A DNA stretch of 64,000 nucleotides from Nemertoderma westbladi (GCA_032718475.1 JAUCBJ010009049.1:1-64000); one strand, 5' to 3'; shown: positions 3,548-64,000, numbered from the stretch's first letter. Translations and numbers: made by a program. Notes: a model not told the origin generated them from the sequence alone.

Positions 3548-3549
3548 CA

Positions 3550-3826: not shown

Positions 3827-3829
3827 CAC

Positions 3830-35100: not shown

Positions 35101-35216
35101 CTCTCCACTCCAAACACACTAAAGTTTTTAGCTCCATATCGATTGAATGGCGCCTGGTGCTCTTGTTCTTGCGTAAACCCTTGATGTAACTCCTTATTCA
35201 TCTTCTCCGCCATCAT
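32117..35216 (-). CDS. B2 accessory ORF3 (frameshifted at ~33125): CxxC..CxxH module, DEDDy-like exonuclease, three zinc knuckles
   Basis: 33123-35216 gives CGAC..CSYH, MFYDNEG, LPKAVRDVVLDKSIVKIGSGVRDDL, YVDNR and YLAIE. 32117-33133 gives CGRCGATGHHAKKC, CNWCGDQRSHTFYTC and CTFCNIKGHRASEC. Aligns by eye with A2 ORF3. Confidence 0.8.
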
Positions 35217-35946
35217 ATACGCGTATATATGGTTACGTTGTTACGTTGCTACTAGATGAAACACAAAATAGAGGTTAGATGTGAGGTGACTTAGAATTTG
35301 TCGGCTTTTGGCTCAACTTTGCTCTAAACCCCAACCCATTTGCCTAATGACTTCGGGTTTGCGTGATTTCGCACTGGCTCCTAATCCAAAAAATTGTGCC
35401 GATAAAAAATGAATTCCGGGTAAACTAGCCGCGAGTCTAAAATACTCACCTTCAATTTCCCAAACTACATTCTTAAAGAAATAATGCAGTCGAGAATTAT
35501 TTGGTCTAAATAATAGTAGACACGACTACGTAGAACAAGGCCGATTTTCTTTTTCCAAAAGAAATTTATCGGTAGGCTCGCAAGCCTTCCATCCGCTCTT
35601 GTCCTCCCTAATTTTAATTTTTATCTAGCTGTAGTCTAGAATTCGTATTCACTGGAGAATCATTTTTCTTAAATTTAAATCCAACTAAATGGATTTGTCT
35701 AATAATTTTTGAAAAATTGTCTCTCTTGTAGGTTCCAAGTGGAATTCCATTCCTACTGTACACACAATCCCGCTCCTATGTGATACATAAGGGTACTACC
35801 CTCCATGTTCACGTATAAAGACAATGGAATTCCACCGCTGTCTCTATCTACAGTGAAGAGGATTACAAATGCACATACAGTAATACAAAATACTAAATGA
35901 CTAAAATACGGTAAGGCTATGTGGCGGCCATCAAGGGTCCCACATC

Positions 35947-41500: not shown

Positions 41501-44500
41501 CATCTCCAGCAAGAATCTAACGATCGAATTTGGAGTCTCCTCTCTTCGATTCCTAACTCTCTAAAAGCGCGACACCCACGAAGTTTGTGTCCGCTATAGT
41601 TTCTGCCGTTCCGCTTGCAGTACGAGCATCCCACAAAGTCCGCTGGCAACTGTTGTCGTGGCTGTGTGGTGCCGATAGGCGTCAGAACTTTAGAAGTCTC
41701 AGTAGTGGTGGCGTAGGTAACGGCTTTCGCGTTCGTCGGAAATGGTTTGGTTCGAGTCGGCGCTGAAATAGCTATCCCTTCCGCCGCGATATGGTGATCA
41801 GTATAGTTCGATCGAGTCTCGATCACGGCCTCCCGTGAAATCAGTTGGTAGACGTCGGTGAGTTTTAATAGCCCGCCGGCTTCTTCACGCTGGTACTCGA
41901 TGCGTCGCCATTCTCGTCGGAGTCTATGGTGAAGTCGACCGATTATCCTAATGAGAACCGTCGGTGCGTTAGCGTATTCGAGTTGTCCTATGGACCGTAA
42001 AGTCCCTATAGCGTTTTTGATTTTGTCCGTGAGTCGTAGAAGGTCGATCGGTTTCGAAATATTGCCTCCTCTGCAGAGGTCTTCTATAATGGATTTAGCC
42101 ATGGCTACGTTACCGCCGTAAATCGAATACAAACGGTCGTACGCCAACTCAAAGGCATCTGGAACACCAATAAAGGTTTCCGCTAATCGTTTCGGCTCAC
42201 CAGACAGGACTTGGAGCAAGTAATTAAACTTCTCCGTCGAGGTGAAAGCACACTTAGCGATCTGGGACTCGACATAGTCTACCAGTGTACGCCAGTGTTT
42301 TGCGTTGCCAGAGAACTTCGGCGGTTGCTGTGCCGGTAATCCGTGTCTAGCCGCGAATTTCGCAATCTCGCTAACCAAATCCAACTGTCCGCGTCCCTGT
42401 TTGGTGGCGTCGTCCAGTCGTTCCCTTCCGTCGGTAGGAATTATTAACGGGATCTTCTTCTCGATGGGTCGGAGTCTGTCTAGTCTCCTGTTCTCTCCTC
42501 GGTGGTCGATGTTGTCTAGGTTGTTCCAATTCCACGCTGGTTCGTGATCGATCCGACGGTTGCGCTTCGAGTCGTTCCTCGGGTTGAGCTAGTCTATCTG
42601 TCATCTCGGTGAATTGTTTGGCGCTGATCGTTTCCGCTGGTCGCAATGTGGGTTTCCAAATGGGTGTTTCTCGTGGTGGGTTGTCGACGAATTGATTTGT
42701 CGATCGTTCCTCTCGTTTGTAATCTGTCGCCGCTGCTGCCGCTCCAGTACGGAATACTTCCCGTTCCGTCGACTCTGAGTCACTGGATGAGTCGCTGTCG
42801 TCCGGATAAGGTGGTTGGCGGATTCGCGTCCGGCATATTATTCTCGAGCGCGTTCGTTGCGTTCCGGGATCCACGGTTCTCCGACGTTCGGTAGGCTCAC
42901 AAGCATTCCACGAAGTCGTAGGTCTTGTCAAACATGGTTCGATCCTGTGAGTACTACCCACATCCGTCCTTCTCCGTTGTTTGGTAGGCTCACAAGCTTT
43001 CCACGAAGTCGTAGGTCGCGTCGAACTCTGTGTCAATGGTTGAGTAAAGTGGTCAGGTTTCGTAGTCGGTCTATAAATAACTGGGTTCGCGCAGCACGTC
43101 ACAGGTTTAACTGCTAACGGCTTACTTACCTGTTTAATTGACATAAATGCAGGTTCCTCCCTTCCTACAAGTAGACTACGACTTACTGTAGGTGGACTAG
43201 TTATGTTACCTGCTAAAATTGGCAATGAAGTTGCCCTAGGTTGCGGTATTTCTGTCACAACAAACCTGTTACCTTGCGTCGAGCGCACAGGCGTTATTTC
43301 TTTAAGTTTTGTGACAAAGACTGGTTTTATTCTAGTCGTGGGTTTGAGCATAGGGATAACTTGTGGAAAACGTTTACAATAATCCTCTACGAACTCCTCT
43401 CCTCTATCTATCGCTCCCACACTTCCTTCCTCAAGACGCTTCTGAATTCCGCAATATCGAGCTTCCAAACGATTCAGAGCAGACAAGTCGTGTCCGGCTC
43501 GGGATCTTACAGATCTATCTCTCGCGTCGAGTTCGAGGTCCTCTTGCGCGTTCGCTGCCTCATGCGATCTACGATTAAATTCGAACTGTAGCTGCATTTC
43601 CCTTTTGCGTCGATCCGCTACTTGTTGTTGTGCTGCTAGTTCTGCTTCCTGTATGGCTAAACGTGATTTTAATTGACGTGCCTCCAACTGAGCACGTGCG
43701 TCAGATGTCGCCTTCTGCCGTGCTAACTCGTCAGCTGCTGCAACTCGTGTTAACTCGTCAGTTGCTACCCGTCGTGCTAACTCGTCGGTAGCTGCCGCCG
43801 CGGCTGCTTCTCGCGCTAAGTCTTCCTCCAATCTTCGCATCTCCGAAGCCTCAAATTCGGCTTACGCTTTGAGTTGCGCAATTCTCGCCTTGTCTTCTCT
43901 ACGTTGTCTCTCTCCCTCGATAGCGATCGGTGTCATCTGTTGTTGCGCTTCTTCCTCGGCGACTTGTTGTCGGCGTGCGACTTCCTGTTGTTGTGAGTAA
44001 TTACGGATGCTGTTCTACTAACGTCGCCAACGTCGCTCCGCATGCTAACGAACAATCTATCCATGGGTGGAATATGGTAGGCTCACAAGCCTTCCGTAGT
44101 GAGAACTTCCGTCGTCCCTTGCGGTTCGACTTCCGGTTCTTTGATCGGTACGCCGCATCTACGAAGAAAATTGGTGAGCATCCCTAACCTCCCGTCCAGG
44201 CAGTATAGTTCTTCTTCCTCCTCGGGTTGTAACAACGCGTCCGAAACTGACTCACCTAGCATTTGGTCGAGCTGCTCCTGTTGAGCCAATCTTATTACTG
44301 ACTTAAACTGAATAATACTTTCTCTCGCACTCACTAACTTATCTATTATCTTTACCTGGGTCAAGTTGTCGCCACGCAACTCTGCGAGTTCGTGTAAACC
44401 TCTAAGTTTATCTACGGAAACATGTACCCTACTTTCTATCCTTACTTGTAAGGTGTAGAACTCGTATCTCGACATCGGGGCGGTTAACTCGCGTAAAATG

Positions 44501-45410: not shown

Positions 45411-46380
45411 TATAAAAGCTTTTGCGGAATTGCCCGGTTATTTTCCTTATTTTTTTCGTAAAATACTCTGTAGTTGGTTTAGTAGGCGTAAGAGGCCGTA
45501 TTATTGCTGTATCGGTGTTTTTTAGAGGACCTAAGAGCTATTTCTTCCGTATTGTGTACTTTGGAAGACATGGTTGGTGATTCTATGGCAATTCTGTGAC
45601 GCAAAATGGCTAGATACTCTTGAACAGTAGTTACTATGACGACGGTTAACAGCTGATATGCATACGTGTCGATTTTCTTTGTTCTACGGTGCCTCTTGGT
45701 TCAGTCAACCAATCAGAGCGTTTTTACTGCTCTTGTAGAGAAATTTCCTAGAAATCACGCAATGCATTATGGGCAATGTTTACATTCTGTCCTAAGCCAT
45801 GAAAGAACGGCTTTTGGAATATTTGTGCTTTTCTGCTTTTAGCCTAACACTAGTAGGCTTAATTATAAGGACATATATCCGTTATCGACTGGCAATACAC
45901 ACTGGTATCACTGGACTCAACCTGCATATATCTTATCGTACATACTTTTATATTGTTATACTGCTATTTACTGTCGGTTCTTCATTATATGGTTGATGAA
46001 ATATTATATTGAAATAACGAGAAATAATCCCAAAACCCCAATATTCTTGATATACCGAAGGTAAGAGAGACCGGTTACATATAACGATTGCAATTTATGT
46101 TAAAGTGGTTTGAAGTGAATCTAATGTTATTTGATAGACCCTACATGAGTCGGTCTGTGTTCCTTTTATATGTGACTAAAATCAGTGAAGATCGGCAGAT
46201 TAGTGTGCAGTATTGTGCAGCATTGTGTATGAGTGAGACTGATAACGAAGCATTTCCTAAAGAATGCGCCATATATGTGAATTATAACTAAGCCATATCG
46301 TTGCGTGTAGTTTAAGTCATAACTCTGTTTATATAGATAAAGCGCCACGTCCTAAAAGAACTGTTAATATTCCCCGAAGG
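45411..46380 (+). repeat. A2 5' LTR (minimum extent; the true end lies further downstream)
   Basis: Matches 63033-64000 with about 10 substitutions and 2 indels by manual count. Confidence 0.95.
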
Positions 46381-48871
46381 TGAATAATATTGTCAGAGAT
46401 TATATAATACGATCAGTCGAATAATACAGTAGGCTTACATAGCAATAAGATTAAGCCGTCAAACTCAATCTCCCGGGTATATCCAGCGGGTGAATGATCG
46501 CGCACGGTTTGGTTTCGACTAGTGTAGTGAATCAGATACTTGTCAGAGGCTAAAAGCGATTTATTATCTAGAAGACATCCTAATTTGGCGGGTTAAACTG
46601 CCAAAGGTATTAAAAGCGCGAACAATAATGGATATATAGCTTCTTTATTGCAGTAAGCAATAAAGTTGAAAGTACCGGTCGACTGGTAAATCTGAACCGG
46701 TACTGCTGTAGGTCTGTAGGCCCAACTGCCGGAACCGGTACTGCTGTAGGTCTGTAGGCCCAACTGCCTGAACCGGTACTGCTGTATAAGTACATTAGTA
46801 TTATTCGATTTGATTGTTATACCGGTAGGTCTTAGTACTTAATCGGGGAACGGCCGCCCTGGTTTTTTATTGAGATTTTACTTATTTCTGTCAGTTTTAT
46901 TTATTTGTAGGCCAATATTGAGCAGAAGGCGTGTAAGCCTGTTCAGATTGTACAGAGAATTTGTAGGCTGAGCTGTTGTCTGACTGTTGTTAAGTCTGAA
47001 AGACTGTAGTGTGTGTAGAGCGTATGTCCGAAAGAGTGCCAGTTAGTAAGTAGGGGCTTCCAGTGTTGTGAGGTAAACCCCCTCTTAAAGAATAAGTCGT
47101 ACTACTCGGTTAGCGCACATACTAACTAACCATTTTGGAGTCTGCATATACTGTGGTTTATTTAGGCTTGATAGTAGGCTGACAGCGTTTGGTCTGTACT
47201 TTGTTTGTGTAGTCTGTACGGGTAGCGTAATATCCTTATTTAGATAATCTGTAGGCTGAATTGTTGCCTAGCTGTTATTAGGTCTGAGGGATTGCGTTGT
47301 GTGTAGAGTGTATGTCCAATAAAGTGCCAGTTAGTAAGTAGGGGCTTCCAGTGTTGTGAGGTAAACCCCCTCTTAAAGAATAAGTCGTACTACTCGGTTA
47401 GCGCGCATACTAACTAACCATTTTGGAGTCTGTACATACCGTAGTTGTTTAGGCTTTATAGTAGTCTGTCAGCATTTAGTCTGCATTTTGTTTGAGTAGT
47501 TTGTACGCGTTGCTTAATATTTATTATTCAGAGTTATGCGATTATTCGCAACATTCATGTCCCCAAGTTTATTCCTACAGTAATTGTGCTTGTTATACAT
47601 ACCGCTATAGTTAAACTAACCCCAGTACTACATCAGGGCTGCTCGGCGTAGGTAAAGACTGGAGATTTTGTGCTTTGGTCACTCCGGCAGATACCGTGGT
47701 TCTTTTAGCTGTTCAAGTATTTTTAACTGCTGGTTATCTGTTTTATAAGTACTTGTACCTAATTTAGGGTTTAGTGTACAGTGCTTTCCGAAAGTAATTA
47801 GTGTGTAGGCAGTATATTTGTGTTGTAAAGTGGTTAATAGGCACGTTGGTTCTGGTAGACCGCTGTAATTAATCTCTAGGTAGGGACACTCCGTGATACA
47901 TAACGTAGTACCTATAGCGCTACGGGTATAGGTCGTCAGACGGTGGTATTTTCCTATCTGGACAGCGCAGTATATTTACTATTACTTATTATTTTCACAT
48001 ACCGTAGTATCCTGTCCGTTGTAATAACCAGAAATTCTAACCTTCTGTTAGACTGGTTTGTAGTTCCCTGTAAAATTACCCTAAAATTTCGTACGTAATA
48101 TTTTGTTGTGTTTAATTAGAGATTAAATCTCACCCGTGTCTTATCATAAGTAATTTGTAGATAAGTAACTTAGGAAGTAGAATTATTTGTTTTAGTGTCC
48201 TATAAGTAACACTTCACTGAAAGCGCACCGCTTTGTGTAGTGATTACTTCCCGGAAATAATAACATCTATTTCAATATTGTAACAAAACCCTCATACGGA
48301 TATATATATATATATTATAAAATAAAATCAATTAAATCTATTTATAAATAGTAGGCCTATTATACAACCTTTAGGTCTTAAAATCAGTTGGACTACTGCT
48401 CAAGTAACGGTAATAAAGTAAGTAAAGTAACCAAGTAACCCTAAAATTCAGGAATTCAATTATTTAAAATAATTGACATACCGGTATTTACAATAGGCTT
48501 ATTATATTTATTTCTATAAATTTAGGCTGAAATCATACCGGTATTCTGTAATTAATATAGGCCATAATTATACCTATATATACTATAAGTGTAGGCTGTA
48601 TACCGGTATTCCAGATAGGCCTATTATATACTTATATATATTTGTGCTGAAACTACATACCAGTATTCTGTAACAAATCTAGTCTGTAATAATACTTATA
48701 TATACTATAAGTGTATACCGGTATTCTACTATATTGCGTGTACATATACAGCTACACTGAGTAGCAGTATAGGTAATTGATTACTAGGATAGCAGTGATA
48801 CTGAATTACTAGACTTGCTTTAACTTTATTTATAGCAGTAGGTATTCAACTGTATAACTGTATAAACTGAA

Positions 48872-51800
48872 ATGTCTGACACGCAGCAAAACCTATCAGA
48901 CAGTCTCCTAGATACAACCATCCGCGACTCAGATAGGGGTGTTGAACCGTCGAGACCTAAGTTCAGCTCACCTCCTAGTGTAAGGAAAGTCATCCCTCCT
49001 GTAGTAATATCAGACCCTAGGCTAATCCAACACCATAGGTCTATCATCGGTACGCGGGCCCAAGTTAAGCGGGATCAAGAAGCAGCCGTCAATCAGCAGC
49101 AACCCCCTAGCCAAGAACCTAGTTCTCAGCGGCCCGATAGCTCCAGTAGTTCGGATACTGTTGAGCTAACGCCCGAACGCGGAGCAAAAATGGCGGATAC
49201 AGTTTATTCGGACCCCCTTCTTGTTCTTCCGGCAGCAGTACTAACTACGGTGTTAGTTGCGGTGGAGGAACACCAACATGATTGGGTTAGAAGTGGGCAG
49301 TCGACCAAAGATAGTTATGCGGGATACCTGAGGGAAGAACTGATGTCTATTGTCGAGTCACAGTGGAACTTCCCCGGACTCGGACTCCCGTTTGACTTAT
49401 CGGAAGCCACCTGGGATGATATACACCGGATGGGAGTGGCCAAGGACACCGTAGATCCAGCTGTTTGGAAGAGGTCAGCAGCTGGATATGTACAAGGGTT
49501 CTTCGGCTCTTTGGAGCGATTAGAAGAACAGCTGTTTCGACAACAACGAGGACCTCAAGAGCAGGAAAAGCTGCTTTATCAAGTACGTGAAAGAACTCTA
49601 CGCATTAGACTAATCCTATCGGCTTTTGAGGAAACATCCAAAAGAAAGCAGGACACGTCATTGCAAGTCGCTGTCAAGACTTGGTTCCAGCGGGTGAGCC
49701 TCAAGGTTCAAGAAACAGCCAAGTGGAAAGCTCAGTTGGCTGAGCGCCCCTACCACTATGAAGAATCAACCGACGCCACCTTTTCTCAAGGGGAAAGCGA
49801 AGTAACAGCAGCAGAGAAGCCGCGAACTAAAAACGCTATTGACATTTATCTGTCCGACTATCAGCGATTCCTAGGAGACGAAGAGTTGAGGAGACGGTTG
49901 GCTGGACTTTCCCCTAATAGTGAAGGAGCCAAGCATGTGTTGGACGCAATCGATACGGAAATGTTAGCTGAAGACCAAGCTAAATTTGATGAACGTCTCC
50001 GCATAGCTAGAGCCCAGGAAGAACAAGTAAAGAAAAGGCGGATAGAAGACAGAAAGGCAGCATCAGTAGCAGCGGCAATGGCAACAGCAGAAGCAGACAG
50101 AAAGGCGGCAGAAGCAGCGGCCGAAGCAGACAGAAAGGCAGAAAGAAAAGCGGCAGAAGCAGCAGCCGAAGCGGACAGAAAGGCAGAAAGAAAGGCGGCA
50201 GAAGCAGCAGCCGAAGTGGAAAGAAAGGCGGCGGAGGCAGTGGCCGAAGCAGAACGGAGAGCGTCTGAAGAGACCACCCAACTAGAGTTGGAAAATCTGC
50301 AAGAGACGCAAGACAACATCAATAGACAGTTAACTGATAGTCGAATGAAGATGATGAGTCGATCTACTTCCAAACGCCAAGGCTATACATCATCGGAGGA
50401 AGGGGATACCACCGACCCTGAAGGCGGAGTAAGTAGATCTCGTCTCAGTAGGCGTAGAAATACATCTCACCGTCACAAATTGCCCGATTTGCCCCCGCTG
50501 TTAGAAGACAAATAGCTAGCACAACCGTAGGTAGTATAGAACCCACAGACCAGATTACTGTAAACAGACACCCTACTATAGTAGATGAACCTGAAATAAT
50601 TAGGCCTGTTCTCGAAGCCACCCCTTTGGTGCTAGAGACACCTGTACTTCTAGAACCTACATTTAAATTCCCTTTACACAGCACCAAACTATCTGTGCCT
50701 AGAGGAACAGTTCCTGAAACAGTGTCGGTCTTGGACTCCGAGCGAAATATAAATAATATATCGCCCGTAGTCCCTCGTCTGCCCGCTACGACGTTGGCGG
50801 ATCCCGCTTCGGCGGTTAATTGGGTAGACGAGAGACGGCGGGGGATGGACATTCTCCTCGGAAAGATGGAGGAGAATCGAGTACGCTCCTCCCAACAAGT
50901 CCGAGAGTTAGAAGGGACTGTTCAACAGTTAAAAGGAACTGTAAAGGAAAGTAGGTTAGAGTTGCAAGAAGTGCAGCAAAGTATCGCATTAGAACGTGAT
51001 AAATTAGTCAATTTACAAAAAGGTATACCACTACCCCCTGTAACAATGTGTCAACCCGTTAGGTCTGAAGTATCCCATGCGCAAGGTGCGGAGCCTACAC
51101 GCATCTATACTGCTAGCAAAGTAGAAACTCCTGTAGTGAACCCTATTAAGGGTAATTATAGACCTGTTGACAATGATATCCCATCTAGACTGGATAATAA
51201 TCCGAGAAATTTATATACCGATAATTCTCTATTCAATAATACGATGGCTCAAGAAAGTTTTACGCGTCAAATGGCTAGAACCGAAGCCCGGCAAGCGGTA
51301 AAGGTTGGAGAGATCGCCAAGTTTAATGGAGATGAGATGAAATGGTTACCTTTTAATGAATATTACAAAGATAACATACAGGACTCTGTACTATCTAACG
51401 GAGAGAAACTTAGATTCCTTATTGAGTGCTTGGAAGGATCTCCCAAGTTAATGGCGTTAAAGTTTATTGAACATCCAGACGGATTAAGACAAGTTTGGGA
51501 CACACTAAACATCAGGTATGGTAATAGGAATAATATCGCTAAATATTTGTATGCAAAATTAGTAGCGCCCAGAAAGTTCATCAACAGTGGGATAATAGAG
51601 TTTTCCGATGAGATTCAAGAGATCTGTAGACAATTAGATTGGTTAGGTAAGTCTCATGAATACCAAAGTTCTATGGTCATTGGAGCTGTAGCTTCTACTT
51701 TACCGAAGGGTGGTGGGGTAGGCACACGCTGGGATAAGAAGGTACTATATATGATGGAACAACAACGACGGGACCCTACCATGGCTGATCTCATGTCATT

Positions 51801-54272
51801 CTTGGACGGAGAAGTGAAATTGCAACTCCTCTAGCAGTCCAGAGAGAAGACACTGGAAAACAAGGTAAGTGAGAAACCCCTTTCCCGGAGAAAAGTAACA
51901 CCAGTATGTTATACCGACGATGGCAAAAGCCAGACTTCTCAAGGAGAGGACAGCGGAAAAAACACTGACAGATCTTATTATGTCAATAAAATGCCTAAAG
52001 ACCAGGTAAGTAAATCCAAGTCTCGACCCAATGACAGAAGGGAACCGGTAAGAAAAACCCCTCCTATGTCTCCTAAGAGAATTCAGGTGAGAAAGTCTGA
52101 AGAAAGAACGAGTGTGCACAATGTCACCCAAAATAAGGTCAGTAACATCAAACCTAAATGTGTACTATGTGACGGGACTCACCGCTTGAATATGTGCGAT
52201 GAATTCTTAAAGAAATCATTAAAAGAGAGACGGGAAGTCATGTGGGATAAGCGGTTGTGTTACAATTGCCTCAGACAAGGACATCAACGGCGAACCTGTT
52301 ACTCTGACATAAGGTGTGCAAAGTGCGGTGCGAAGCATCACCTCTTGTTGCACACTGAATTCGAGCGAACCAACCCGAGTCAGGTAAGTGATTCCGAATT
52401 ACATGTCCAATTCAGTGATGTGAACGACACCGACCGAGGTTCTGAGATGGAAGGATTCTATACGGACAAGTTCTCCGACGAAAACGAATCCTGCTATATG
52501 ATAAATACCGCTGTGTATCGAGCGCTTATGTATGAAAAAAATACAGACAACGACCTTACCTTAACTACTTCGGATCAATAACAATCTTGGAAAGCGCCAA
52601 CTTCAAATGTAGGAATCCGAGAATTTCCTGTAGTCCAGTTGCGGGTCCACGGACCTCAGAAGAGCTATATAGTGAACGCCCTCCTCGACTCCGGTAGCAC
52701 AGGAACATTCATCGATAAAGAACTAGCCGAAGACATCTTTGCTGGACAACCCAAGTTCCGAACCAAGCTAAAAATGTCAGGAATCATGCAGGTTTGGAAA
52801 TCTACTGTAGCTGCCGACTATTATATAGGTGAGTTGTCCACTCCACAGGATAAACTAGGAGAATACAGTATAAGGTCAGTAAAAATGGTGGCAATAAAGA
52901 ACTTCGCTACCACCCAAGTGGAACCTTATAATTGGGACGAAGATGATCATGCCCAACAACTTAACATCACTAGATTCGACACCGATTATCCTGGAGTACA
53001 AATATTAATCGGTCAAAACGCGCATGAGGCGCTGAAGACATAAGAGAAACGACCTGCTCAACCGCAACCACTTCAGACCTATGCGGTAAGAACTAGAGTA
53101 GGTTGGTACCTTACTGGACCTTCCCGTAGAACACTCAGAGAAAGACTACCTCAAGATCGCGTCTGCCAAGTGAGTGAATGGGAAGATGATACTAGTGAGG
53201 AAGACGATCTAACTGAGGGAACTCCATACTCCTCAGATAACGATGACGTTCACCAACTTTTTGATGAGGAGAATACCATTGATCTCCTTAAGGAAAACGA
53301 GGCTTGGCAAAACCAAGTGAACCTATGTCAACTTCTCTATCCATCCGAAAGAGAAGCGTATAATGACAAGCTAAATGACGTCATTGAACGTTATAATGCC
53401 AAGACTCGGGATGAACATGCCGTACGATTCTTTATGCAAGAGGCGGTAGAGCCCAATTCCTACGATAAGGCCTTATCGGTGGAAGAGGAAAGGGCCAAGC
53501 AGATCCAAGAGACAACTACACGTTTCCTCAAAGATCAAGTTGGTATGAAATCGGTCTACCTTTCCGCAAGTGAGAACCGAAGTTCATCAATAACAGACCC
53601 TTGGCGGAGAAAAGAATTGCGCAACTCCATCGACACCTTACGGCAAATTCTTCAGCTAAAGAAATGTATCAAACACAGCTGAAGAAATTTATTAGTAAGG
53701 GATACGCGGAGAGAGTACCGGAAGAAACACCTGTAACTGAAAGAACGTATTACTTAACTCACCATTACGTTCCCAAACCCGGTAAACCACATGAAGTGAG
53801 AGTAGTGTTTGATGGCTCCGCTCTCTACATGGGCCAATCCCTTAACTCTGAATTGTTACCCGGACCCAACTTACTTCAATCCTTGTTGGGAATTCTTTTA
53901 AGATTAAGACAATATTCAATCGCTTTCGCCTCAGATATAGAAGGCATGTTCTTACAAGTTAAGGTGCTGGATAGGGATCGAGATAGCCTACGATTTCTAT
54001 GGTGGCCTGAAGGAGACCTCAACCAGAAACCGGTGGAGTACTGGATGACCATCCAGGCCTTTGGGATAATCTCAAGCCCTTCCAACGCCTGTTCAGTGGT
54101 GCGTACCACTGCGGATGACAACCGAGAAGCCTTCTCTAAGGAAGTGATTGACAACATCAAGCGGGACATATACATGTACGATAATCTGAAGTCCCTTCCA
54201 TCAGTTGAAGAAGCCATTGAGGTCGCTAAAGGAACGGTAGAGTGCTTAAAAAGAGGTGGATTTAGATTATAA
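48872..54272 (+). pseudogene. A2 gag, protease and RT N-part (several stops and frameshifts)
   Basis: Coiled-coil (EAAAEADRKA)n; KFNGD..W; knuckles CVLCDGTH..C, CYNCLRQGH..C and CAKCGAKHH; LLDSGS; VRVVFDG; DIEGMFLQV; YMYD (YMDD in A1). Confidence 0.95.
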
Positions 54273-57054
54273 ATTCACCAGCAATTCCCGTGAGTTTCTG
54301 GAGTCGATCCCTGCAGAAGATCGAGGGGCAAAAGATCTAGATTTGATCAAGGATGATCTTCTAGAAACCAAGACACTCGGCTTGAAATGGGACACAGAGA
54401 GAGATATCCTGTTTTTCCAACTAAAACAGCGAGATAATCCAGTTCGAACCAAACGGATTTGTTTGAGTATACTGAGCACTTATTTTGATCCATTGGGATT
54501 TATTAGCCCAGTTATATTGATTGCTCGAAGTTTGGTACAACAAATGTGGCTTGAAAACCACTCATGGGACGATCCACTTAAGGGAGAATTATTAAAGAAG
54601 TGGATGAAATGGGAAGATTCTCTGCCAGCCATCGAGGATTTTATAATTTCCCGTTCATATTTTGGTCATGTTCTCCCTACGTATTCCTATCAACTCCATG
54701 TGTTTGGAGACGCCAGCGATATGGGAATAGGTATAGTAGCCTACCTGAGAGTGGAAACTCCGGATGGAATCAAAGTCGCCTTGGTTACCTCTAAGGCATT
54801 AATCAACAACAAGTTGAAAGTTCCTCGAGCGGAGTTAAAGGCGGCGCTATACACTACAGCCATCGGCCGGAATGTAACCGAACAGATCGATTATCCATTA
54901 GAGAAAACTGTCTATTGGACCGACGCTTTACTCGTGTTAGAGTATATAACCAATGAAGTCTGTCAGTTCAGCGTCTTCGTTACCAACAGAGTAGCCATCA
55001 TACTTAGTCGCACGACGATGGATCAATGGAGACATTGCCCCGGAACGATTAATCCAGCAGACATCGCCTCCAGGGGAGCGACTCCAAAAGAATTGGTAAA
55101 TACTCCCGAATGGTTAGGTGGACCCGACTTCCTCTACAGAGAAGAAGAAGAATGGCCTCCCCATCTCACAACAGCAGAGATTAGACAGGCCAAGGGAGCG
55201 GAGAAAGTTAAACCTAAAACTCGAGCGAGTAAATCGAAATTATTTAAACCTGCGGTTGATCTATCTGTATTATTTACTTCCGGAGGTGATGCTTTGGATC
55301 AGAAACCCCCTGCCACGAATAAAGAAGTCTTGGAAATCCGTGACAAGGATTGGAAATCTGGAATACCAGATATCTCACAAGGACTCTCACCTCTCCTGCA
55401 GAGAGCGATCCATCACTACAGTTCCTGGAATCGGCTCTGTAAAGCCGTCATATATTTAAAGCGATGTTTTCATCATCATTACTCCAGGACAAAGACCAAT
55501 AGTGATGATGCTCCATCGACATCTGCACGAGTCCATGTTGTTAAAGATCTTCCCAAATACAAGATATCCGACAGGTTTCTAAAGGAGAAGATCAGTTACC
55601 AGGAGCATGATGAAACCAACAAACAGATGCTAAAACTCCTACAATGCTATGAGGATTCCGATAAGTATTTCCTGTTGTTGAGAAATCCGCAGATGCGCTT
55701 AAGGGATCGCTTCTCTAGTACAATGATAGATGGGTTAATACGTGTGGGAGGAAGGCTTACTAACGCCCCATTATCCTTTGACACTAAGTTTCCCATACTC
55801 ATTAGAAATCTTGATATACAAATCAAGATGATTGTAGATGTTCATGGTAAACTGTACCATGCTGGTAGAGAACGAGTTCTTAGCGAAATTCGAACTCGCT
55901 ACTATTTTTATAAACCCCGCAGAGCTCTGAACCAAGTTCTTAGGAACTGCATACCCTGTAGGAAAGCATTCAGTAGGCCTTTAACACAGCGAGAGGCAGA
56001 ATTACCTAGGGAACGAGTAAGCTTCTATGAACCACCCTTTACTAATACCGGTGTGGATTTATTTGGCCCTATTGAAGTATATCGTGCCCGGACTATAGTC
56101 AAGAGATGGTGTGTCATCTTCGTTTGTATGACTTGTAGAGCTATCCATCTCGTTATGGTAAACGATCTATCTACCAACAGCTTCGTGTTAAGTTTACGAC
56201 GACAGATCGCTCGCTTCGGAACTAGTAACACGATGAGATCGGATAAAGGAACGAACTTCATTGGCGCCAACAACGAAATTCAAGCTTACGTAAAGGACTG
56301 GAACCAAAGACAGGTGGACAACCAGCTAAAGGTAACAGCGTCTAGCTGGACCTTCAACGCCGCCGACGCCCCTTGGTGGGGAGGAACTTGGGAGAGATTG
56401 ATTAGGAGCGTGAAGACTGCATTCCACTTTATAGTGCCGTGTCGCGCTTATCTCACCGACGAACTATTACAGACGTTAATGGAGGAAATCGCCGCCTATC
56501 TCAACGAAAGACCGCTTATGCCAGTCTCTTCAAGTCCTGATTCCCTGGAAGCGCTAACACCCGCGCACTTTCTACTGAAGAAACCCGTAGCCATGCTCCC
56601 ACGATCGGAGATCACAGACGGAGACGAGTACTGCCGTCAAACCTGGCAACTTATGCAGTTGCTATCCCGTCGTTTCGCTGACCATTTCGAGAAACATTAT
56701 CTGCCCACTCTACAACTTCGAACTAAGTGGTTTGCGCAGCAAGAAAACGTCAGCGCTGGAGACATGGTGCTTATTGTGGACCCCGATCTCCCACGTAAGC
56801 GATGGCAAACAGGTTGTATCATCAAGACACATATCTCGAGCGATGGTTTGGTGCGATCGGTAGAACTTGTCGTCATGCGGCGTAACTTTAAGAAACCGGG
56901 GATAGTCTTTGAGACTCAACAGCTCAACCACCCAGTGGGTCGTTTATGTTTACTGGAAAGAGACAGAGAGCTCTCCGGAAACTATGGAAGGCAAGAAACT
57001 CTTCCCACGACCACCTCCCTAATCCAACCAACATCTAGGGGCTCCCCAACTTAA
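54256..57054 (+). CDS. A2 pol segment: RT C-part, RNase H, integrase (932 aa open)
   Basis: FDPLG, HVFGDAS, PRAELKAA, YWTD, NPADIASRG, H..H..CIPC, GVDLFGP, SDKGTNF, WERL. Confidence 0.95.
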   Translation: MDLDYKFTSNSREFLESIPAEDRGAKDLDLIKDDLLETKTLGLKWDTERDILFFQLKQRDNPVRTKRICLSILSTYFDPLGFISPVILIARSLVQQMWLENHSWDDPLKGELLKKWMKWEDSLPAIEDFIISRSYFGHVLPTYSYQLHVFGDASDMGIGIVAYLRVETPDGIKVALVTSKALINNKLKVPRAELKAALYTTAIGRNVTEQIDYPLEKTVYWTDALLVLEYITNEVCQFSVFVTNRVAIILSRTTMDQWRHCPGTINPADIASRGATPKELVNTPEWLGGPDFLYREEEEWPPHLTTAEIRQAKGAEKVKPKTRASKSKLFKPAVDLSVLFTSGGDALDQKPPATNKEVLEIRDKDWKSGIPDISQGLSPLLQRAIHHYSSWNRLCKAVIYLKRCFHHHYSRTKTNSDDAPSTSARVHVVKDLPKYKISDRFLKEKISYQEHDETNKQMLKLLQCYEDSDKYFLLLRNPQMRLRDRFSSTMIDGLIRVGGRLTNAPLSFDTKFPILIRNLDIQIKMIVDVHGKLYHAGRERVLSEIRTRYYFYKPRRALNQVLRNCIPCRKAFSRPLTQREAELPRERVSFYEPPFTNTGVDLFGPIEVYRARTIVKRWCVIFVCMTCRAIHLVMVNDLSTNSFVLSLRRQIARFGTSNTMRSDKGTNFIGANNEIQAYVKDWNQRQVDNQLKVTASSWTFNAADAPWWGGTWERLIRSVKTAFHFIVPCRAYLTDELLQTLMEEIAAYLNERPLMPVSSSPDSLEALTPAHFLLKKPVAMLPRSEITDGDEYCRQTWQLMQLLSRRFADHFEKHYLPTLQLRTKWFAQQENVSAGDMVLIVDPDLPRKRWQTGCIIKTHISSDGLVRSVELVVMRRNFKKPGIVFETQQLNHPVGRLCLLERDRELSGNYGRQETLPTTTSLIQPTSRGSPT

Positions 57055-58711
57055 TATCGTTCGGAGTGGGCGTGTGACTCTATTATTTTATATTATTTTA
57101 TTATTTTTATATTTCTGTATGTATTACTATGTAATTTTATTATAATCGTTTTCTTTAATTTTTATTTTAAGTAGAATATTATTAGTGATTATTTAGTAGA
57201 ATAGTGCAATATATTCGCGTTTATTGCGTACGTAATTACTTATATATTATATCTTTAGTGTGACGGCGAGAAACAATTATTTTTCTCTTTCCTTACTGTC
57301 TGTATTATATTATAAATACGTGACTACAGTAAGATGAAATGTCCGTACTTATTAAAGTACAATAAAGCCACTACTATATTCAAGTATTATTGGTAGGCAG
57401 AGTATTAGGAATGCAAAGTTCAGATCCTCGTGTCTCGGCTAAACCAAGCTCTGGGTAGACCTTGGAAACGACTTGCCTCTTCACACTGACATTGCTCCGT
57501 GCGATATTGCTCTCATACCATATATAATAATACATATAGTAGCGTGATGTCCCTATAACAGTAGCGTAAAACGCACATAAATCTGTTAAACCTTTGACCA
57601 TCTGTAATTCTAGTCGATTAAGATATCGCGGCACCCACCGATATACTTGAAAGACAAATTCTAGAATCAGTGGTTAACGTCCCCAGACTAGTTCTGGAAT
57701 AAATCGGTGCCCATCTCAAATATTAATTATTTAATATTTACAAATCTATAACTAAAATCTGTAAAATTCAGATCCTTTAACAATTCTGGTCGATTAAGAT
57801 ATCGTAGCACTTACCGATACTCTTAAAAAGACAATTTTCATAGAATTAAGGATCTCGTGTCCCCAGACATGTTCTGGAATCAAATCGTGTCAATTTTACT
57901 ATTAAATAATAAAATTCACGGGAATAAATTTAAATTCATACCTTTCAATGAATTTAATAAATTGCCATTTTTACGCAATTTATAACATTCCCAAAATTCC
58001 ATTAATTAATAGACCACGGGAGTGGAGATTTATCTTATCATGCGCATTAGTGTGCGAGAATCTCCCAAACATAGTCAATAGCCGATAAAATTCATAAAGT
58101 CATGTATAAAACGGGATATTGACCATTAAATAATTACTATTAAATAACATCCCAGATCTGTATGCATTGGAATTACCCTAATTCTACCGCTAGCTTTGCA
58201 TAATGTCACCATAGCAACAACCACGCTAGAATTAGAATTGAGTTAAAAGAACAATAGAAAGCTTGTCCCATTGAATAGCATAGGGAATAAATAGCGCAGT
58301 GCTAGTATCCAAGGATACATAATAATACAGTGACATTCTGAAAGGCACTGACTAATGGACAAATGGCCCGAATGTGCGTAGTTTGTGACAGTTGTGTGGT
58401 ATTTGTGAGTTTATAGGTGAATGTTACTGCTAAAGTGTGTTTACAGTAGCTAGTCGCAATCGTGAAAGTAGCCCTAACTCTCCAAGGATAACCTGAAGTA
58501 CATCTAAGCCTTTGGGACGGACAGTGGAGTGACTTGTGCCAGTTATCGTTGTCGTTGTGCGGCTACGTCGTTGGCGAAAGTACAGCGACAGCGGTACATC
58601 GGCGCTGAGAATCTCACACTGTCCGGGGGCAAAAGCGGGGTAGGCAGCGACGCCCGCTCGCCTAATATATACATAAACTCATTATAATATTGGTGAACTC
58701 TTATAGCAGAT

Positions 58712-61700
58712 ATGACTGAGTTGATAGAAGATGATCTTGGTATTAGGGAGCGATATACTCTACCTTTACAAGCGTTTGTCGATAGCTTGATACGCGGCGA
58801 CGCTGATCCAACTACTACGGAGGACGATGGTCGTTATATCGAACCGCCAATGTCCCAGGAGCAACTTACGCGGGAATAGGATTATAGAAGGTTCACCGCT
58901 CGCTATACGCGTCGTAATGGTACGTATATGGACTTCTTAACTACTGGTCATCCTATCGATTTACACGATACAGACGATATAGACACCGAAAGGGAAATGG
59001 TTTTATTTAAATATCATACCCAGCGGAGTCGAAACGATAAATCAAGAATAGAACACGAGAACTCTATTCGAAATAGACTCGAGAGGGAAGACGTTGAAGA
59101 ACCGGATAAACGTAGCGACTTTAACGATTATCTAGAATTCCTGAGAGAGACCTATCTCAATATTGCCAGCCAACAAAACCTCGAAACTCGATATCCTCAA
59201 GGTATACATCCAGATCCTATGATGGAACTCAAACGGCTCTATTTTACGATGATGTATCTTACCGCCGATCGACCGCTACCTGTCGTTCCAGATAGCTTCG
59301 AACAGATGGAGGAATATTGTAAAACTGGAGAGCGATCACCCGCGTTTCCCCTTCAAGACGTGCGTCTTTGGTATTACTGCGACGAATGCCCTAGACCTAA
59401 TCAGCAAATCGAAAGGCATAAACATCCGCGGAGACGTTGCGCTAAACACAGTTTTACGCGATATACTTATGGGAGTTTCGAGCGAAACCTTTTCGATGTA
59501 TCACCTACGGTCGCACGCCTTAAACGATCTTTGAATAAACCCATGATCAGAGTTCCGGAATACTTGGTCAAACCTCCTCATTCCCAAGTGAGACCTCAAA
59601 CTTTCGATCCTAATAGTATTACGGATCCTCCCGAACTGTACTCACTGTTCAAAGATCTAGTGTTACCCGAACAGTTGATTGGTGGCACTCCGGTAGTGGG
59701 TTCGTTAGATATTCGCCAACCCTACCTAGCTGGACTAGGACGCGGTCATCTAATATCACCGTTTAACCCATACAACCGTCCTGGCCTCCCTCCGATCCAA
59801 CCTGTTGCGGAAGTCGAAGAGAGCGTGATACGAAATGCATTGGACGCTATTCGGCAGAAAATCGGAAAGGGAACTTACAATTGCTTGGAAAAACGTAAAT
59901 TGCAACAACAAGTCCAAGCAGTGAAAGAACTAGCTTTACCCCAGTTTGATAGAGAAATACAAAATCTAGAGGAGGACATCGAACGTGGACGCACCTACTC
60001 TTTACAGAAATTCCTGGACGAGCGCTTGCAACAACAAGCGGAGGAAAATCAGCTTGAGGAGAGACATATAGAACTGAATGAGAGGGAAGAAGCAGCTTTA
60101 GCCCAGCCAGAAGCTCAAATTCTCATGACGGATCTCTATTCTAAAACGATCCTCCACCCCTCGATGGTTCCTCATTTCAGAGACAAGCTCTTTGCTACGG
60201 TACAGCCTCAACCGGTTAATACCGATCTTAGATCTCAAGAGCTTATTGCGGACGCTCCCATGTTACAACGTCCACCCATCGAAGCCGCTCGTGTCGATGG
60301 TGTACTCGTTGAACCTCCGTACAATAGAGCGGATCTTGTCTGTCGCATGGTGCACGATGTTAACATACGCGCTAGACCTTTACCGGACTCATTTTATGGA
60401 ATTAAGGATCACCCTTATTACGTCAACTTAACACAATATTACATGGTAAAACCGGAAGATCCTATGCATAGTCTGAGGTTTCTACCATTAATAAATCCTC
60501 TCGATCTTGTCGAACTCAAACAACTGCAGAAACATCTGGATCAGTTAGTTAAAATAAACTCATTTCGAAAACCGTATAATATTTCTAGAATAGAGAAATA
60601 AATAATACCTCCGTATAATCTTGATGGATTCATTAAAACTCGATTAGTGCACTGGAATCTTGACGTGTTATTCGAGGAGGAAAGAATAAAACGATATGGA
60701 GATGTGGAAACCTATACTACACAATGCTTAAAGTATAGAGACTTACCCAATGCTAGCGAATGCGCTACTTTGTGACATCCAGTGGGAATGACTCTCGAAA
60801 ACGCCACTAAGGAATGGAACGAGACTCTTAACGTTATCGAGATGTATGGCGTTGTTACTTATGACAACGAAGGTAGCGTTCCAGCTGGAGAACTAGGAAC
60901 TACGCAAATGATACACATACGAGGACTCGCTGGTTCTACCCACGTATTCACGCGAGCGTGTTCCGACGTGATTGATTATTCTTTTGAAACTCTTACAGAG
61001 ACACAAAAGAAACTCCGACATGGACAATTCGAGCTCGCGCAGCGTTATGTCAACAACACTGAGCGCAAACCAGCCATGGGTATCGATGGATCAATGTTAC
61101 CTCAACCCGTACTCGAAATGTTGTTTAACGAAAGAATCCTGAAAATCGGCTCAGCTGTTTATGGAGATCTCCAAAACGACTTTCGGAATATGGAAAACAT
61201 TCCATACCCTTTCGTTGATACTCAGCTGATTGCTCCTTGGGCCAAAGGCCGAGGTTTCTTTCGCACGATGTATGCCAATACACCCAGCGGCATTACTAAA
61301 GTACAACGGACCTCCATCGGACATCTTGCCTTTCAAGAATATGGATGGAATTTCAAAGTTGGAAATCCTATCAATTACCAGCAAGTATATGGAGATCATT
61401 ACTCTCGTTTGTATTTTGATGGACCATTAACTGCGCCTGGTGCCGTAAATAGCTTTATGAGTGTTCCACTTCGCCCTTCCTTAGCTATATACACGATCTT
61501 TGAGAACGCAGCACTTGCCGGTTGGCTAGTCGATGTGTGCAGTCGTACCATACGCGCCCATCCATTAATACTTGGAACCAAACTCGCCAAATTTATACGT
61601 TTCGAATGTTTCCGGCGCTTTCTGACTCCGTTCCGTAACGTCAATAGTCAGTTCAAGGACCGCGCGCTGACCAAACTCAGTCTGAGAGACTCAGCTGCGG

Positions 61701-62599
61701 AGAAACTGAGTAGCGCTGGATTTGCCATTTTTCAAGACGTTTGTATACAGAACTTACATTCATCTGTTATACAAAGACCCCGAATACCTACAGGTTATTC
61801 TGTCGTAGAAGTCCAGACAGTGGGTCCACTTACTGAGACAGACGCTCCCACATCAACTATGCAGTTGGAGGATGAGCCAGTATGCTTGGAATCAGAAGCG
61901 ATTCAGCCTACAGCTTCCCGGAGCAGCAATAATGATTACGTCTTAGAGTGGTATCAAGGTCCACAACGTCTCACAGCGTACGATTATCGACACGCGAACT
62001 ATGTTTCTCGAAAACGTTGTCGATTATGCGCATCGAGAGACCACTTCACCCCTCTAGACTCAGACGTACCCTGCTCCTATTTCCTCGAACAACTGATGAT
62101 GGAAATATATTGTGCGTATTGCAGACTTAATAACTCTCATATTTTTGACGTCTGCCCACAATTTATGACTCAATGTCACTACTGTCAACTTAAAGGACAT
62201 GACAGTTACAATTGTCCCTTTAATCGCGATTTAGAGAGCGTAGACGAGATGATCACATTGCGATACATCCGAGCTTGGGAAGCGAACGCGGATTTACATT
62301 GCGAATCCCGACATCGCTATTACCCTGGATGCGCTTACGAGGGAGTTTACGCGTTCCATCCTTATCTATTCGCGTCGATTGAACAGAAAACACGCGTACC
62401 GAGTTATGAGTTGATGAAGCGTGTTGGTGAATGTATTTCCACCAAGTTTGTTAGAAAATACCTTAGAAACGTTAACCCTAATGATATAACCTCATATCAC
62501 TTGATCAATTTTATCCGTCAAGACCCTGAGTATGGCGATATCTTTGTGAACTCGCACCCTGAACTACAGGAAGTATCTCGGCGACCCTATGAATATTGA
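58712..62599 (+). CDS. A2 accessory ORF3 (~1295 codons, three in-frame stops): CxxC..CxxH module, DEDDy-like exonuclease, zinc knuckles
   Basis: ATG 58712 and ORFs 58928-60601 and 60782-62599 share one frame. The stops at ~60599 and ~60773 are sense codons in A1. Motifs CDEC..CAKH, YDNEG, KIGSAVYGDL, VDTQ, YTIFE, CRLC..H, CAYC..H..C and CHYCQLKGHDSYNC. Confidence 0.82.
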
Positions 62600-63008
62600 A
62601 CCCGAGAACGCGAGCTGGAGAGAACCATTAAACCGAGAAAGTTTCTCACCACTCACGGTCCTCCCACCACTAGTGTCCAGACAGGCCGCGTCAGGTCCCG
62701 TCAGGGACCCGTGGGAGCTGCTGTCCTGAGACGCGCTCTAAAGGCTGTTAGACCTCGCTGAGGTTGATTTCAATCAACCAGGTACTTCGACGGGTGGGTA
62801 TACCGATCGTAACCCTACACCTTCTGATGCAATTATATTGCACCCTTCGCCTAGGAGCTACAGCCCTCCTAGTAAAGTGGCTCGCCCCAAAGAGAAAAGG
62901 ACTCTTGCTAGCCTAAAGAAACTGCATAAACGCCGTCCGCGTAAGAAAGACTAACTGTTTAGAGTATCTTTATGTTTTAGAAACTGTGATTTTTATATTT
63001 TATAGACT

Positions 63009-63032
63009 GAAAATCCCATTTTCTGGGAGCGG
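63009..63032 (+). promoter_or_regulatory. Hairpin plus PPT (GGGAGCGG) preceding the A2 3' LTR
   Basis: GAAAAT-ccc-ATTTTC-T-GGGAGCGG lies immediately before the LTR repeat start. Confidence 0.8.
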
Positions 63033-64000
63033 TATTAAAGCTTTTGCGGAATTGCCCGGTTATTTTCCTTATTTTTTCCGTAAAATACTCTGTAGTTGGT
63101 TTAGTAGGCGTAAGAGGCCTATTATTGCTGTATCGGTGTTTTTTAGAGGACCTAAGAGCTATTTCTTCCGTATGTGTACTTTGGAAGACATGGTTGGTGA
63201 TTCTATGGCAATTCTGTGACGCAAAATGGCTAGATACTCTTGAACAGTAGTTACTATGACGACGGTTAACAGCTGATATGCATACGTGTCGATTTTCTTT
63301 GTTCTACGGTGCCTCTTGGTTTAGTCAACCAATCAGAGCGTTTTTACTGCTCTTGTAGAGAAATTTCCTAGAAATCACGCAATGCATTATGGGCAATGTT
63401 TACATTCTGTCCTAAGCCAGGAAAGAACGGCTTTTGGAATATTTGTGCTTTTCTGCTTTTAGCCTAACACTAGTAGGCTTAATTATAAGGACATATATCC
63501 GTTATCGACTGGCAATACACACTGGTATCACTGGACTCAACCTGCATATATCTTATCGTACATACTTTTATATTGATATACTGCTATTTACTGTCGGTTC
63601 TTCATTATATGGTTGATGAAATATTATATTGGAATAACGAGAAATAATCCCGAAACCCCAATATTCTTGATATACCGAAGGTAAGAGAGACCGGTTACAT
63701 ATAACGATTGCGATTTATGTTAAAGTGGTTTGAAGTGAATCTAATGTTATTCGATAGACCCTACATGAGTCGGTCTGTGTTCCTTTTATATGTGACTAAA
63801 ATCAGTGAAGATCGGCAGATTAGTGTGCAGTATTGTGCAGCATTGTGTATGAGTGAGACTGATAACGAAGCATTTCCTAAAGAATGCGCCATATATGTGA
63901 ATTATAACTAAGCCATATCGTTGCGTGTAGTTTAAGTCATAACTCTGTTTATATAGATAAAGCGCCACGTCCTAAAGGAACTGTTAATATTCCCCGAAGG
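63033..64000 (+). repeat. A2 3' LTR (runs off the window)
   Basis: Direct repeat of 45411-46380. Confidence 0.95.

What the first reader, a model, noticed from the sequence alone, without database searches (positions are those of the whole stretch)
58712..62954. Giant BEL/Pao elements carry a large accessory exonuclease / zinc-knuckle gene in the env position
Seen: after integrase, A2 (58712-62599), A1 (23846-25486) and the divergent family B (32117-35216, minus) all encode homologous proteins. Shared blocks (A / B) are YDNEG / YDNEG, LPQPVLEMLFNERILKIGSAVYGDL / LPKAVRDVVLDKSIVKIGSGVRDDL, FVDTQ / YVDNR, CAYCRLNNSHIFDVCPQFMTQCHYCQLKGHDSYNC / CNWCGDQRSHTFYTCWRFVAQCTFCNIKGHRASEC, and WEANADLH / WEDLADEH. 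Basic tails follow in shifted frames (KKLHKRRPRKKD ending at 62954; RRRSPSPVRPR in B). Knowledge: DxE..LP..L..L....I.K.G....D..VD is the signature of DnaQ-fold DEDDy exonucleases (WRN-exo, EXD1/EXD2, MUT-7, RNase D), several of which act in small-RNA pathways. Extra ORFs in BEL/Pao are normally env-like. From memory, DEDDy ORF3s were reported in bdelloid rotifer retroelements, so the domain capture has precedent; I do not know this multi-domain BEL/Pao form. Inference: retention in two families whose nucleotide sequences no longer align implies a selected, clade-defining function. Candidates are anti-piRNA/siRNA counter-defence, RNA/cDNA end processing, or fidelity support for a ~20-kb genome (by analogy to nidovirus ExoN).
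Basis: partly seen in the sequence, partly recalled or inferred. Interest (0 to 1): 0.92.

Follow-up and report, generated by a model that had tools for sequence, protein, structure and literature searches.

The report
BEL/Pao retrotransposons carrying an exonuclease gene
Two distantly related, very large BEL/Pao jumping genes in this animal genome carry, where an envelope gene usually sits, a long third gene kept by selection that likely encodes an RNA-trimming exonuclease joined to three zinc knuckles, which would extend to this group a kind of cargo so far described in rotifer elements, although its activity and target are untested.

Summary
Confirmed, with corrections. A2 is a BEL/Pao element of at least 18.6 kb with 99% identical LTRs. 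Between integrase and the 3' LTR lies a 1,295-codon third gene, broken here by three stops. A1 and family B (RT 44% identical, no DNA match) carry homologues; A1/A2 dN/dS in the nuclease part is 0.05.

Pfam finds no exonuclease in it and two AlphaFold runs failed. Weaker lines agree on a DnaQ-type (PF01612) domain: ESM Atlas hits for A2 and B separately, NCBIfam RNase D (E 0.01), profile-profile comparison (81-94%), and all three Exo motifs in order, reading D-E-D-(Y)-E. Three CCHC knuckles and a shared C-terminal block follow; there is no membrane segment. One outside relative (P0001, context unknown) has the same layout.

Best reading: an RNA-binding 3'-5' exonuclease accessory protein, built like trypanosome RNase D, possibly aimed at host silencing RNAs. 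Activity, expression and target are untested. DEDDy ORF3s are published for non-BEL rotifer LTR elements; ten paper searches found none for BEL/Pao. 'Clade-defining' and the basic tails are unproven. New variant of a known kind.

The parts
45411..46380 (+). 5' LTR of A2 (end not determined; at least this long)
   Evidence: 99.0% identical over 968 aligned nt to 63033-64000; start lines up with the TG start of A1 at 10910
48866..57054 (+). gag-pol of A2, broken by stops and frame changes
   Evidence: Pfam DUF1759, Peptidase_A17 (E 1e-35), Integrase_H2C2, DUF5641; ORF map
57055..58711 (+). AT-rich non-coding spacer between pol and ORF3, ending in a splice-acceptor-like TTATAGCAG just before the ATG (by eye, untested)
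   Evidence: sequence; A1/A2 divergence 0.13-0.15 in two aligned stretches against dS 0.37-0.81 in coding parts
58712..62599 (+). ORF3 of A2, 1,295 codons, in-frame stops at 58877, 60599, 60773
59204..59479 (+). N-terminal block with CxxC...CxxH (possible zinc finger), shared with B 34949-34647
   Evidence: BLASTP E 2e-10; tblastn; no Pfam hit
60806..61570 (+). DnaQ-type 3'-5' exonuclease domain; candidate catalytic codons D 60863, E 60869, D 61166, Y 61490, E 61502
62018..62215 (+). three CCHC-type zinc knuckles (first degenerate in A2), at 62018, 62111, 62174
   Evidence: Pfam zf-CCHC E 2e-4 in B, zf-CCHC_3 E 0.04 in A2
62216..62503 (+). conserved C-terminal block of unknown family (W-E-x-x-A-D-x-H region), shared with B and more weakly with P0001
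62742..62954 (+). basic low-complexity tail in another frame; link to ORF3 not shown
63025..64000 (+). purine tract (63025-63032) and 3' LTR of A2 from 63033, cut by the window end
23848..25479 (+). middle piece of ORF3 in copy A1, with the exonuclease domain (D 24752, E 24758, D 25055, Y 25379, E 25391)
33123..35240 (-). family B ORF3, N-terminal part and exonuclease domain (D 33803, E 33797, D 33533, Y 33218, E 33206)
32117..33154 (-). family B ORF3, knuckles and C-terminal block, out of frame after a probable deletion in this copy
35947..43861 (-). gag-pol of family B (BEL/Pao)
   Evidence: Pfam Peptidase_A17, DUF1759, DUF5641; 35-44% identical to A2 pol

Best explanation
These BEL/Pao elements carry a conserved third gene inside their LTRs that likely encodes an active, RNA-binding 3'-5' exonuclease, which would help the element by trimming or destroying RNA 3' ends, probably those of host silencing RNAs or of cut element transcripts. 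Shown: the gene's position, its homology across families A and B, purifying selection, and no membrane segment. Inferred from sequence: a DnaQ fold of the WRN/EXD2/RNase D kind (about 0.9), and a two-metal site D-E-D-(Y)-E that still works although its last Asp is Glu (about 0.65). Inferred by analogy: the three knuckles grip single-stranded RNA and feed it to the nuclease, as in trypanosome RNase D (about 0.7 if active); the gene is made from its own subgenomic RNA, as it lies 1.65 kb behind the pol stop. The target is the weakest step: silencing RNAs about 0.3.
For: Position between integrase and a 3' LTR 99% identical to the 5' LTR. dN/dS A1/A2 0.052 (bootstrap 0.03-0.09, 271 codons) in the nuclease domain, against RT 0.035, RNase H region 0.12, integrase 0.12, gag 0.15-0.22; wrong frames give 2.4-2.5 with 15-18 stops. 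ESM Atlas: A2 domain 24 of 30 hits in PF01612 clusters (best such row 0.91; the top three rows, 0.92-0.93, were unnamed clusters); B domain, named clusters only, 30 of 30 PF01612, top 0.93 'Werner syndrome-like exonuclease'. NCBIfam: the only 2 families hit by A2 are both RNase D (E 0.0098, 0.063). PDB search with the four-sequence profile: the only hit at E<=10 is EXD2 (E 0.63). hhalign against 28 bacterial PF01612 domains: 81.5% (E 1e-5) for A2/A1/B, 94.2% (E 1e-7) with P0001, 0 of 100 column shuffles reach either. Exo I, Exo II, the VD strand, the G-x-G helix and Exo III stand in order in A2, A1, B and P0001, and Exo III has RNase D's spacing P[LP]xxx[QL]xxYxxx[DE]. All four acids and the Tyr are kept across proteins 27-31% identical (identities). 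Three knuckles in A2, B and P0001. In TbRND the zinc-finger domain raises RNA binding and cleavage (PMC7797062, section 13). Highest 19-residue hydropathy 1.3-1.5, no signal-like start.
Against: No Pfam exonuclease hit for A2, A1 or B even at E 10; P0001 reaches only E 0.2; NCBIfam scores are far below cut-off and B has no hit. The first profile comparison gave only 22%, and A2/A1/B against the 17 WRN-like bacterial domains only 4.6%. Atlas shared-feature counts (153-168) are below the 170 typical of same-family hits. The domain has large insertions (E to second D 88-99 residues against 57-58; second D to last acid 109-112 against 69-72) and the last Asp is Glu, so it could be inactive. The copy in question is broken by three stops. 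Strong domain-wide purifying selection is not what an arms-race interface would show. Internally deleted versions that skip most of ORF3 exist in public contigs (table 5). Nothing here tests activity, substrate or target.
Confidence: 0.55

Rival explanations
1. The domain has the DnaQ fold but is a pseudo-nuclease: ORF3 binds RNA without cutting, shielding element RNA ends or escorting the unspliced genomic RNA out of the nucleus, in the manner of EXD1/Maelstrom derivatives or the Cer1 CERV protein.
For: Last catalytic Asp is Glu in all four sequences, with long insertions; three knuckles, an N-terminal Cys/His block and basic tails fit an RNA-binding nuclear protein; CERV is a precedent for an export factor made from a spliced mRNA (PMC10309623, abstract); Rodriguez et al. 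mention inactive DEDD derivatives in piRNA pathways.
Against: All four positions stay acidic and the Tyr is kept across proteins about 30% identical; rotifer ORF3s also vary the motif (DEED) and were read as possibly active.
Confidence: 0.2
2. The nuclease works inside the particle on reverse-transcription intermediates: it proofreads or trims cDNA 3' ends or primer remnants, which supports an unusually long genome.
For: Closest named relatives (WRN-exo, EXD2) include DNA exonucleases (substrate range recalled); both families are long (A2 at least 18.6 kb); dN/dS is close to that of RT.
Against: ORF3 is not fused to pol and lies 1.65 kb downstream of it; the passages read on Ogre and Burro elements of similar or larger size name no exonuclease (PMC6431247); knuckles point to single-stranded RNA, though they can also bind ssDNA.
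Confidence: 0.17
3. ORF3 is a real conserved gene but not an exonuclease; the motifs are a chance likeness, or the gene is a host passenger of no use to the element.
For: No curated-threshold hit, no confident model; the motif pattern was written after seeing the sequences.
Against: Five library searches or comparisons made without naming a family, or against shuffles, point to the same clan; selection and retention since the A/B split argue against a passenger.
Confidence: 0.08

Closest known systems
DEDDy ORF3 of bdelloid rotifer LTR retrotransposons Juno and Vesta, and of Athena/Terminon elements (PMC5408684, passages read)
   Same: A DnaQ-type exonuclease gene downstream of pol in place of env, no membrane segment, an altered last part of the acidic motif, function untested.
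   Different: Here the host element is BEL/Pao (the rotifer clades named are Juno, Vesta, TelKA and Mag); the gene is about 1,300 codons with an N-terminal Cys/His block, three CCHC knuckles and a C-terminal block ('zinc' and 'CCHC' do not occur in that paper's main text); motif D-E-D-(Y)-E rather than DEED; strong purifying selection is measured here. Direct sequence relationship to the rotifer proteins was not tested.
Trypanosoma brucei RNase D, TbRND (PMC7797062, abstract and section 13; PDB 7c42/7c45 listed as CCHC-type domain protein)
   Same: DEDD exonuclease followed by C-terminal zinc fingers; acts on small RNAs.
   Different: Cellular enzyme with four zinc fingers and a shown substrate; no direct sequence match to ORF3 was found, so this is a likeness of layout only.
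WRN-exo / EXD2 / RNase D family (Pfam PF01612)
   Same: Order and local pattern of Exo I, II, III, including K-[IV]-G-x5-D and P-L-x3-Q-x2-Y-x3-acid.
   Different: Long insertions, last Asp replaced by Glu, below all curated cut-offs.
Belpaoviridae as defined by ICTV (PMC8742986, whole text), and env-bearing members such as Atlas (PMC9094657, passages)
   Same: LTRs, gag-pol domain order, purine tract before the 3' LTR, third gene after integrase.
   Different: At least 18.6 kb against 4.2-10 kb; the third gene has no env features.

Membership tests
BEL/Pao (Belpaoviridae) | BEL-specific gag and pol domains in the order gag, PR, RT, RNase H, IN | tested here: met
   DUF1759, Peptidase_A17, Integrase_H2C2, DUF5641 in A2 and B; YVDN RT motif in B
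BEL/Pao (Belpaoviridae) | Two LTRs with a purine tract before the 3' LTR | tested here: met
   A2: 99% identical LTRs, tract at 63025-63032. B: only the tract and TG are seen; its 5' LTR is outside the window
BEL/Pao (Belpaoviridae) | tRNA-Arg or tRNA-Gly primer-binding site after the 5' LTR | tested here: inconclusive
   LTR end unknown; an inverted-repeat scan of 45400-48900 showed nothing decisive
BEL/Pao (Belpaoviridae) | Placement in an RT phylogeny | not tested
   no named BEL/Pao reference sequences could be fetched
DEDDy 3'-5' exonucleases (PF01612) | Exo I DxE, Exo II D and Exo III Y in order and context | tested here: met
   present in A2, A1, B, P0001
DEDDy 3'-5' exonucleases (PF01612) | Last catalytic residue is Asp (YxxxD) | tested here: not met
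   Glu in all four sequences, Asp in 17 of 17 bacterial WRN-like domains; so filed as a DEDDy-like variant, not a canonical member
DEDDy 3'-5' exonucleases (PF01612) | Score above the curated family cut-off | tested here: not met
   no Pfam hit for window proteins; P0001 11.9 bits against 23.6; TIGR01388 15.2 bits against 299
DEDDy 3'-5' exonucleases (PF01612) | DnaQ fold | tested here: inconclusive
   AlphaFold pLDDT 30 and 32, fold search meaningless; profile-profile 81-94% and Atlas hits support it indirectly
DEDDy 3'-5' exonucleases (PF01612) | Two-metal 3'-5' exonuclease activity | not testable with these tools
   needs an assay
Env-like third genes of BEL/Pao | Signal peptide and transmembrane anchor | tested here: not met
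   maximum 19-residue Kyte-Doolittle mean 1.32 (A2), 1.48 and 0.78 (B), and these peaks lie in the Exo III helix; polar N-termini
Rotifer DEDDy ORF3 pool (Juno, Vesta, Athena) | Sequence clustering with the rotifer ORF3s | not tested

The most novel reading that the evidence does not exclude
An old, undescribed lineage of large BEL/Pao elements has replaced env with a 1,300-residue nuclease that uses zinc knuckles to seize and destroy the host's piRNA or siRNA guides: an enzymatic suppressor of RNA silencing encoded by an animal retrotransposon, which would explain the very high repeat load of these families.
Probability: 0.2. Interest if true: 0.88.

Novelty: new variant of a known kind. Interest (0 to 1): 0.6.

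Why it matters
Extra genes of BEL/Pao elements are described as env-like. A large, selected nuclease-plus-knuckle gene shows that this group also carries enzymatic accessory genes, and that exonuclease capture by LTR elements is not limited to rotifers. Unlike the rotifer report, it comes with strong purifying selection and a naturally unbroken nuclease domain that can be assayed as it stands. This makes the open question of what retrotransposon-borne DEDDy nucleases do directly testable. If the target is small silencing RNA, it would be a rare enzymatic counter-defence of an animal transposon.

Full report
1. The elements. The window holds two BEL/Pao families. Family A has copies A1 (from 10910) and A2 (from 45411); family B lies on the minus strand, as a long copy (about 31250-45400) and a fragment (7407-10909). 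Pfam finds DUF1759, Peptidase_A17, Integrase_H2C2 and DUF5641 in both families. A2's LTRs start at 45411 and 63033 and differ by 1.0% over 968 aligned bases; a purine tract precedes the 3' LTR. A2 therefore spans at least 18.6 kb. ICTV gives 4.2-10 kb for the family (PMC8742986, whole text); an automated survey gives a median of 7.4 kb and a maximum of 22.8 kb (PMC3118150, passages and supplement 9). No genome is held for the window and the host was not identified.

2. The observation. After the pol stop (57054) and a 1.65-kb spacer, one frame runs from 58712 to 62599, 1,295 codons, with stops at 58877, 60599 and 60773. A1 is open across the latter two places, and in four public runs all contig depth listed at 60599 and 60775 differs from this copy (table 3, which shows 40 of 1,653 rows; the first stop is not among them). 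So at least two of the three breaks belong to this copy. A2 and B match in three blocks in the same order: an N-terminal Cys/His block (E 2e-10), the nuclease region (E 8e-26), and the knuckles with a C-terminal block (E 3e-17). Their RT regions are 44% identical, other pol parts 35-40%, ORF3 blocks 26-33%, and blastn finds no match. B's frame change near 33127 coincides with a point where contigs from X3, X4 and X5 stop matching from either side, which suggests a deletion in this copy. The basic tails are there, but other contigs show indels in these regions and their link to ORF3 is open. Both families are highly repeated: 632 to 48,789 contigs per run laid on the A2 stretch in three runs of organism A and 272 in one run of organism B; 146 to 3,968 on the B stretch in the three organism A runs and 9 in the fourth. 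These counts are not copy numbers.

3. Selection. Nei-Gojobori estimates for A1 against A2: ORF3 overall 0.063 (542 codons), nuclease domain 0.052 (0.03-0.09), the part before it 0.088, RT 0.035, RNase H region 0.121, integrase 0.124, gag 0.153 and 0.215. One 77-codon stretch was saturated. The two wrong frames give 2.4-2.5. This is one pair of sequences, but it shows that the nuclease domain was as constrained as the core enzymes while the A lineages diverged.

4. What the domain is. Curated libraries give no firm call: Pfam has no exonuclease hit for the window proteins, and AlphaFold failed twice. Weaker results agree with each other. The ESM Atlas placed 24 of 30 hits for the A2 domain in PF01612 clusters (0.91; three unnamed clusters ranked higher) and 30 of 30 named hits for the B domain (0.93). 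NCBIfam's only two hits among five proteins are RNase D models on A2 (E 0.0098 and 0.063). The scan of 1.84 billion representatives returned one protein, P0001 (648 aa, E 2.5e-9), a singleton on a 9.4-kb ENA contig, with a weak PF01612 hit (E 0.2), a plain IDVE Exo I motif, three knuckles and the same C-terminal block. With P0001 added, the only PDB hit is EXD2 (E 0.63). I collected bacterial PF01612 domains. Against a profile of 17 WRN-like ones, each of the four sequences scored 2.4-3.9 bits, reached by 0, 0, 1 and 1 of 250 shuffles, and hhalign gave 22%. A joint alignment with those 17 put YDNE on FDTE, the two following strands, K-x-G-x5-D, the VD strand and the next helix in register; Exo III was misaligned by an insertion and was placed by its pattern. 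The four rows taken from that alignment were then compared with a different set, 28 of the 30 loci (2 failed the extraction filter): 81.5% for the three window proteins and 94.2% with P0001, with 0 of 100 column shuffles reaching either score; against the 17 guide sequences the values were 4.6% and 90.1%. Exo III reads PLRPSLAIYTIFE (A), PPQIILQYYLAIE (B) and PLCHDQLYYIYCE (P0001), against PLTERQCEYAAAD in E. coli RNase D. The full ordered pattern matched 0 of 20,000 shuffles for each protein, but it was written after seeing the sequences. I put the DnaQ fold at about 0.9. The active site would be D-E-D-(Y)-E, with the last Asp replaced by Glu in all four and with long insertions.

5. How it most likely works. 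ORF3 has no signal peptide or membrane segment, so it is not an envelope. It lies apart from pol, behind a spacer that ends in a splice-acceptor-like sequence, so it is probably made from its own RNA (inference). Nuclease plus C-terminal CCHC fingers is the layout of trypanosome RNase D, where the fingers raise RNA binding and cutting (PMC7797062, abstract and section 13). I therefore read ORF3 as an RNA-gripping 3'-5' exonuclease that works for the element (0.55). The target I favour is host silencing RNA or sliced element RNA, but only at about 0.3. Rivals: a non-cutting RNA-binding or export factor like CERV of Cer1 (PMC10309623, abstract; 0.2), cDNA trimming or proofreading (0.17), and no nuclease at all (0.08).

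6. What is known. DEDDy ORF3s are published for the rotifer LTR elements Juno and Vesta and for Athena elements; there the motif is DEED, no function was shown, and that paper says such nucleases had not been reported before in retrotransposons (PMC5408684, passages; echoed in PMC5718144, PMC6431247 and PMC6338049, passages or first part). Ten full-text searches turned up no BEL/Pao element with an exonuclease gene. Term look-ups found no such mention in PMC3118150, PMC9094657, PMC11662393, PMC5348765, bioRxiv 10.1101/825315 and 10.1101/2023.10.26.564294 (passages only). Subscription papers on the nematode Cer elements, Repbase Reports, GyDB pages and bioRxiv supplements could not be searched, so a prior note there cannot be excluded. 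Unchecked notes from this scan describe Gypsy elements in other genomes with an Rrp6-like exonuclease plus one knuckle, or with dead exonucleases, as third genes, and none with a BEL/Pao exonuclease. If those hold, nuclease cargo is a recurring theme, which lowers the surprise but widens the question.

7. Verdict. It is a new variant of a known kind: the first case I could find in BEL/Pao, in a much larger multi-domain protein with an altered active site. Function, expression and distribution remain untested. Interest 0.6.

Noticed in passing
window 10909/10910 and 45410/45411: Both family A copies sit inside family B elements, in the opposite orientation and at different sites; could be a dense repeat region or a target preference.
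   Followed up: no
window 57060-57357, 57782-58642 and 45952-48450 against A1: Non-coding spacer and LTR/leader differ by only 0.13-0.15 between A1 and A2, while synonymous sites differ by 0.37-0.81, which hints at constrained cis-elements; only alignable stretches were measured.
   Followed up: partly
window 63019-63034 (+) and 31268-31253 (-): Families A and B share a T-run followed by GG(G)AGCGG directly before the 3' LTR start, although their DNA does not otherwise align.
   Followed up: partly
window 37793-38213 (-): Family B pol holds an in-frame 12-nt tandem repeat giving a Ser-Pro-Asp-rich linker between RNase H and integrase.
   Followed up: no
window 20040/20042: Copy A1 lacks about 730 nt of the integrase region that A2 has at 55478-56205.
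   Followed up: yes
window 22596-23847: 1.25 kb of GC-rich DNA with no other match in the window stands in A1 where the N-terminal part of ORF3 would be.
   Followed up: no
window about 31115-31040 (-): A tRNA-like stretch by eye, perhaps a SINE head, just inside B's presumed 3' LTR; not called by ARAGORN or Rfam.
   Followed up: partly
window 25697-27145 and 27838-28997: A LINE-type RT fragment (Pfam RVT_1) and a 43-nt satellite follow the N gap after A1.
   Followed up: no
window 46947-47525 and 12382-12974: About 290-nt tandem duplication in the leader of both A copies; a short hairpin with TTGGCGG/CTGCCAA arms near 46586 could mark the primer region.
   Followed up: no
table 5: Public contigs join 59079 to 61919 and about 60070 to 62810, so derivatives lacking the nuclease domain exist as DNA.
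   Followed up: no
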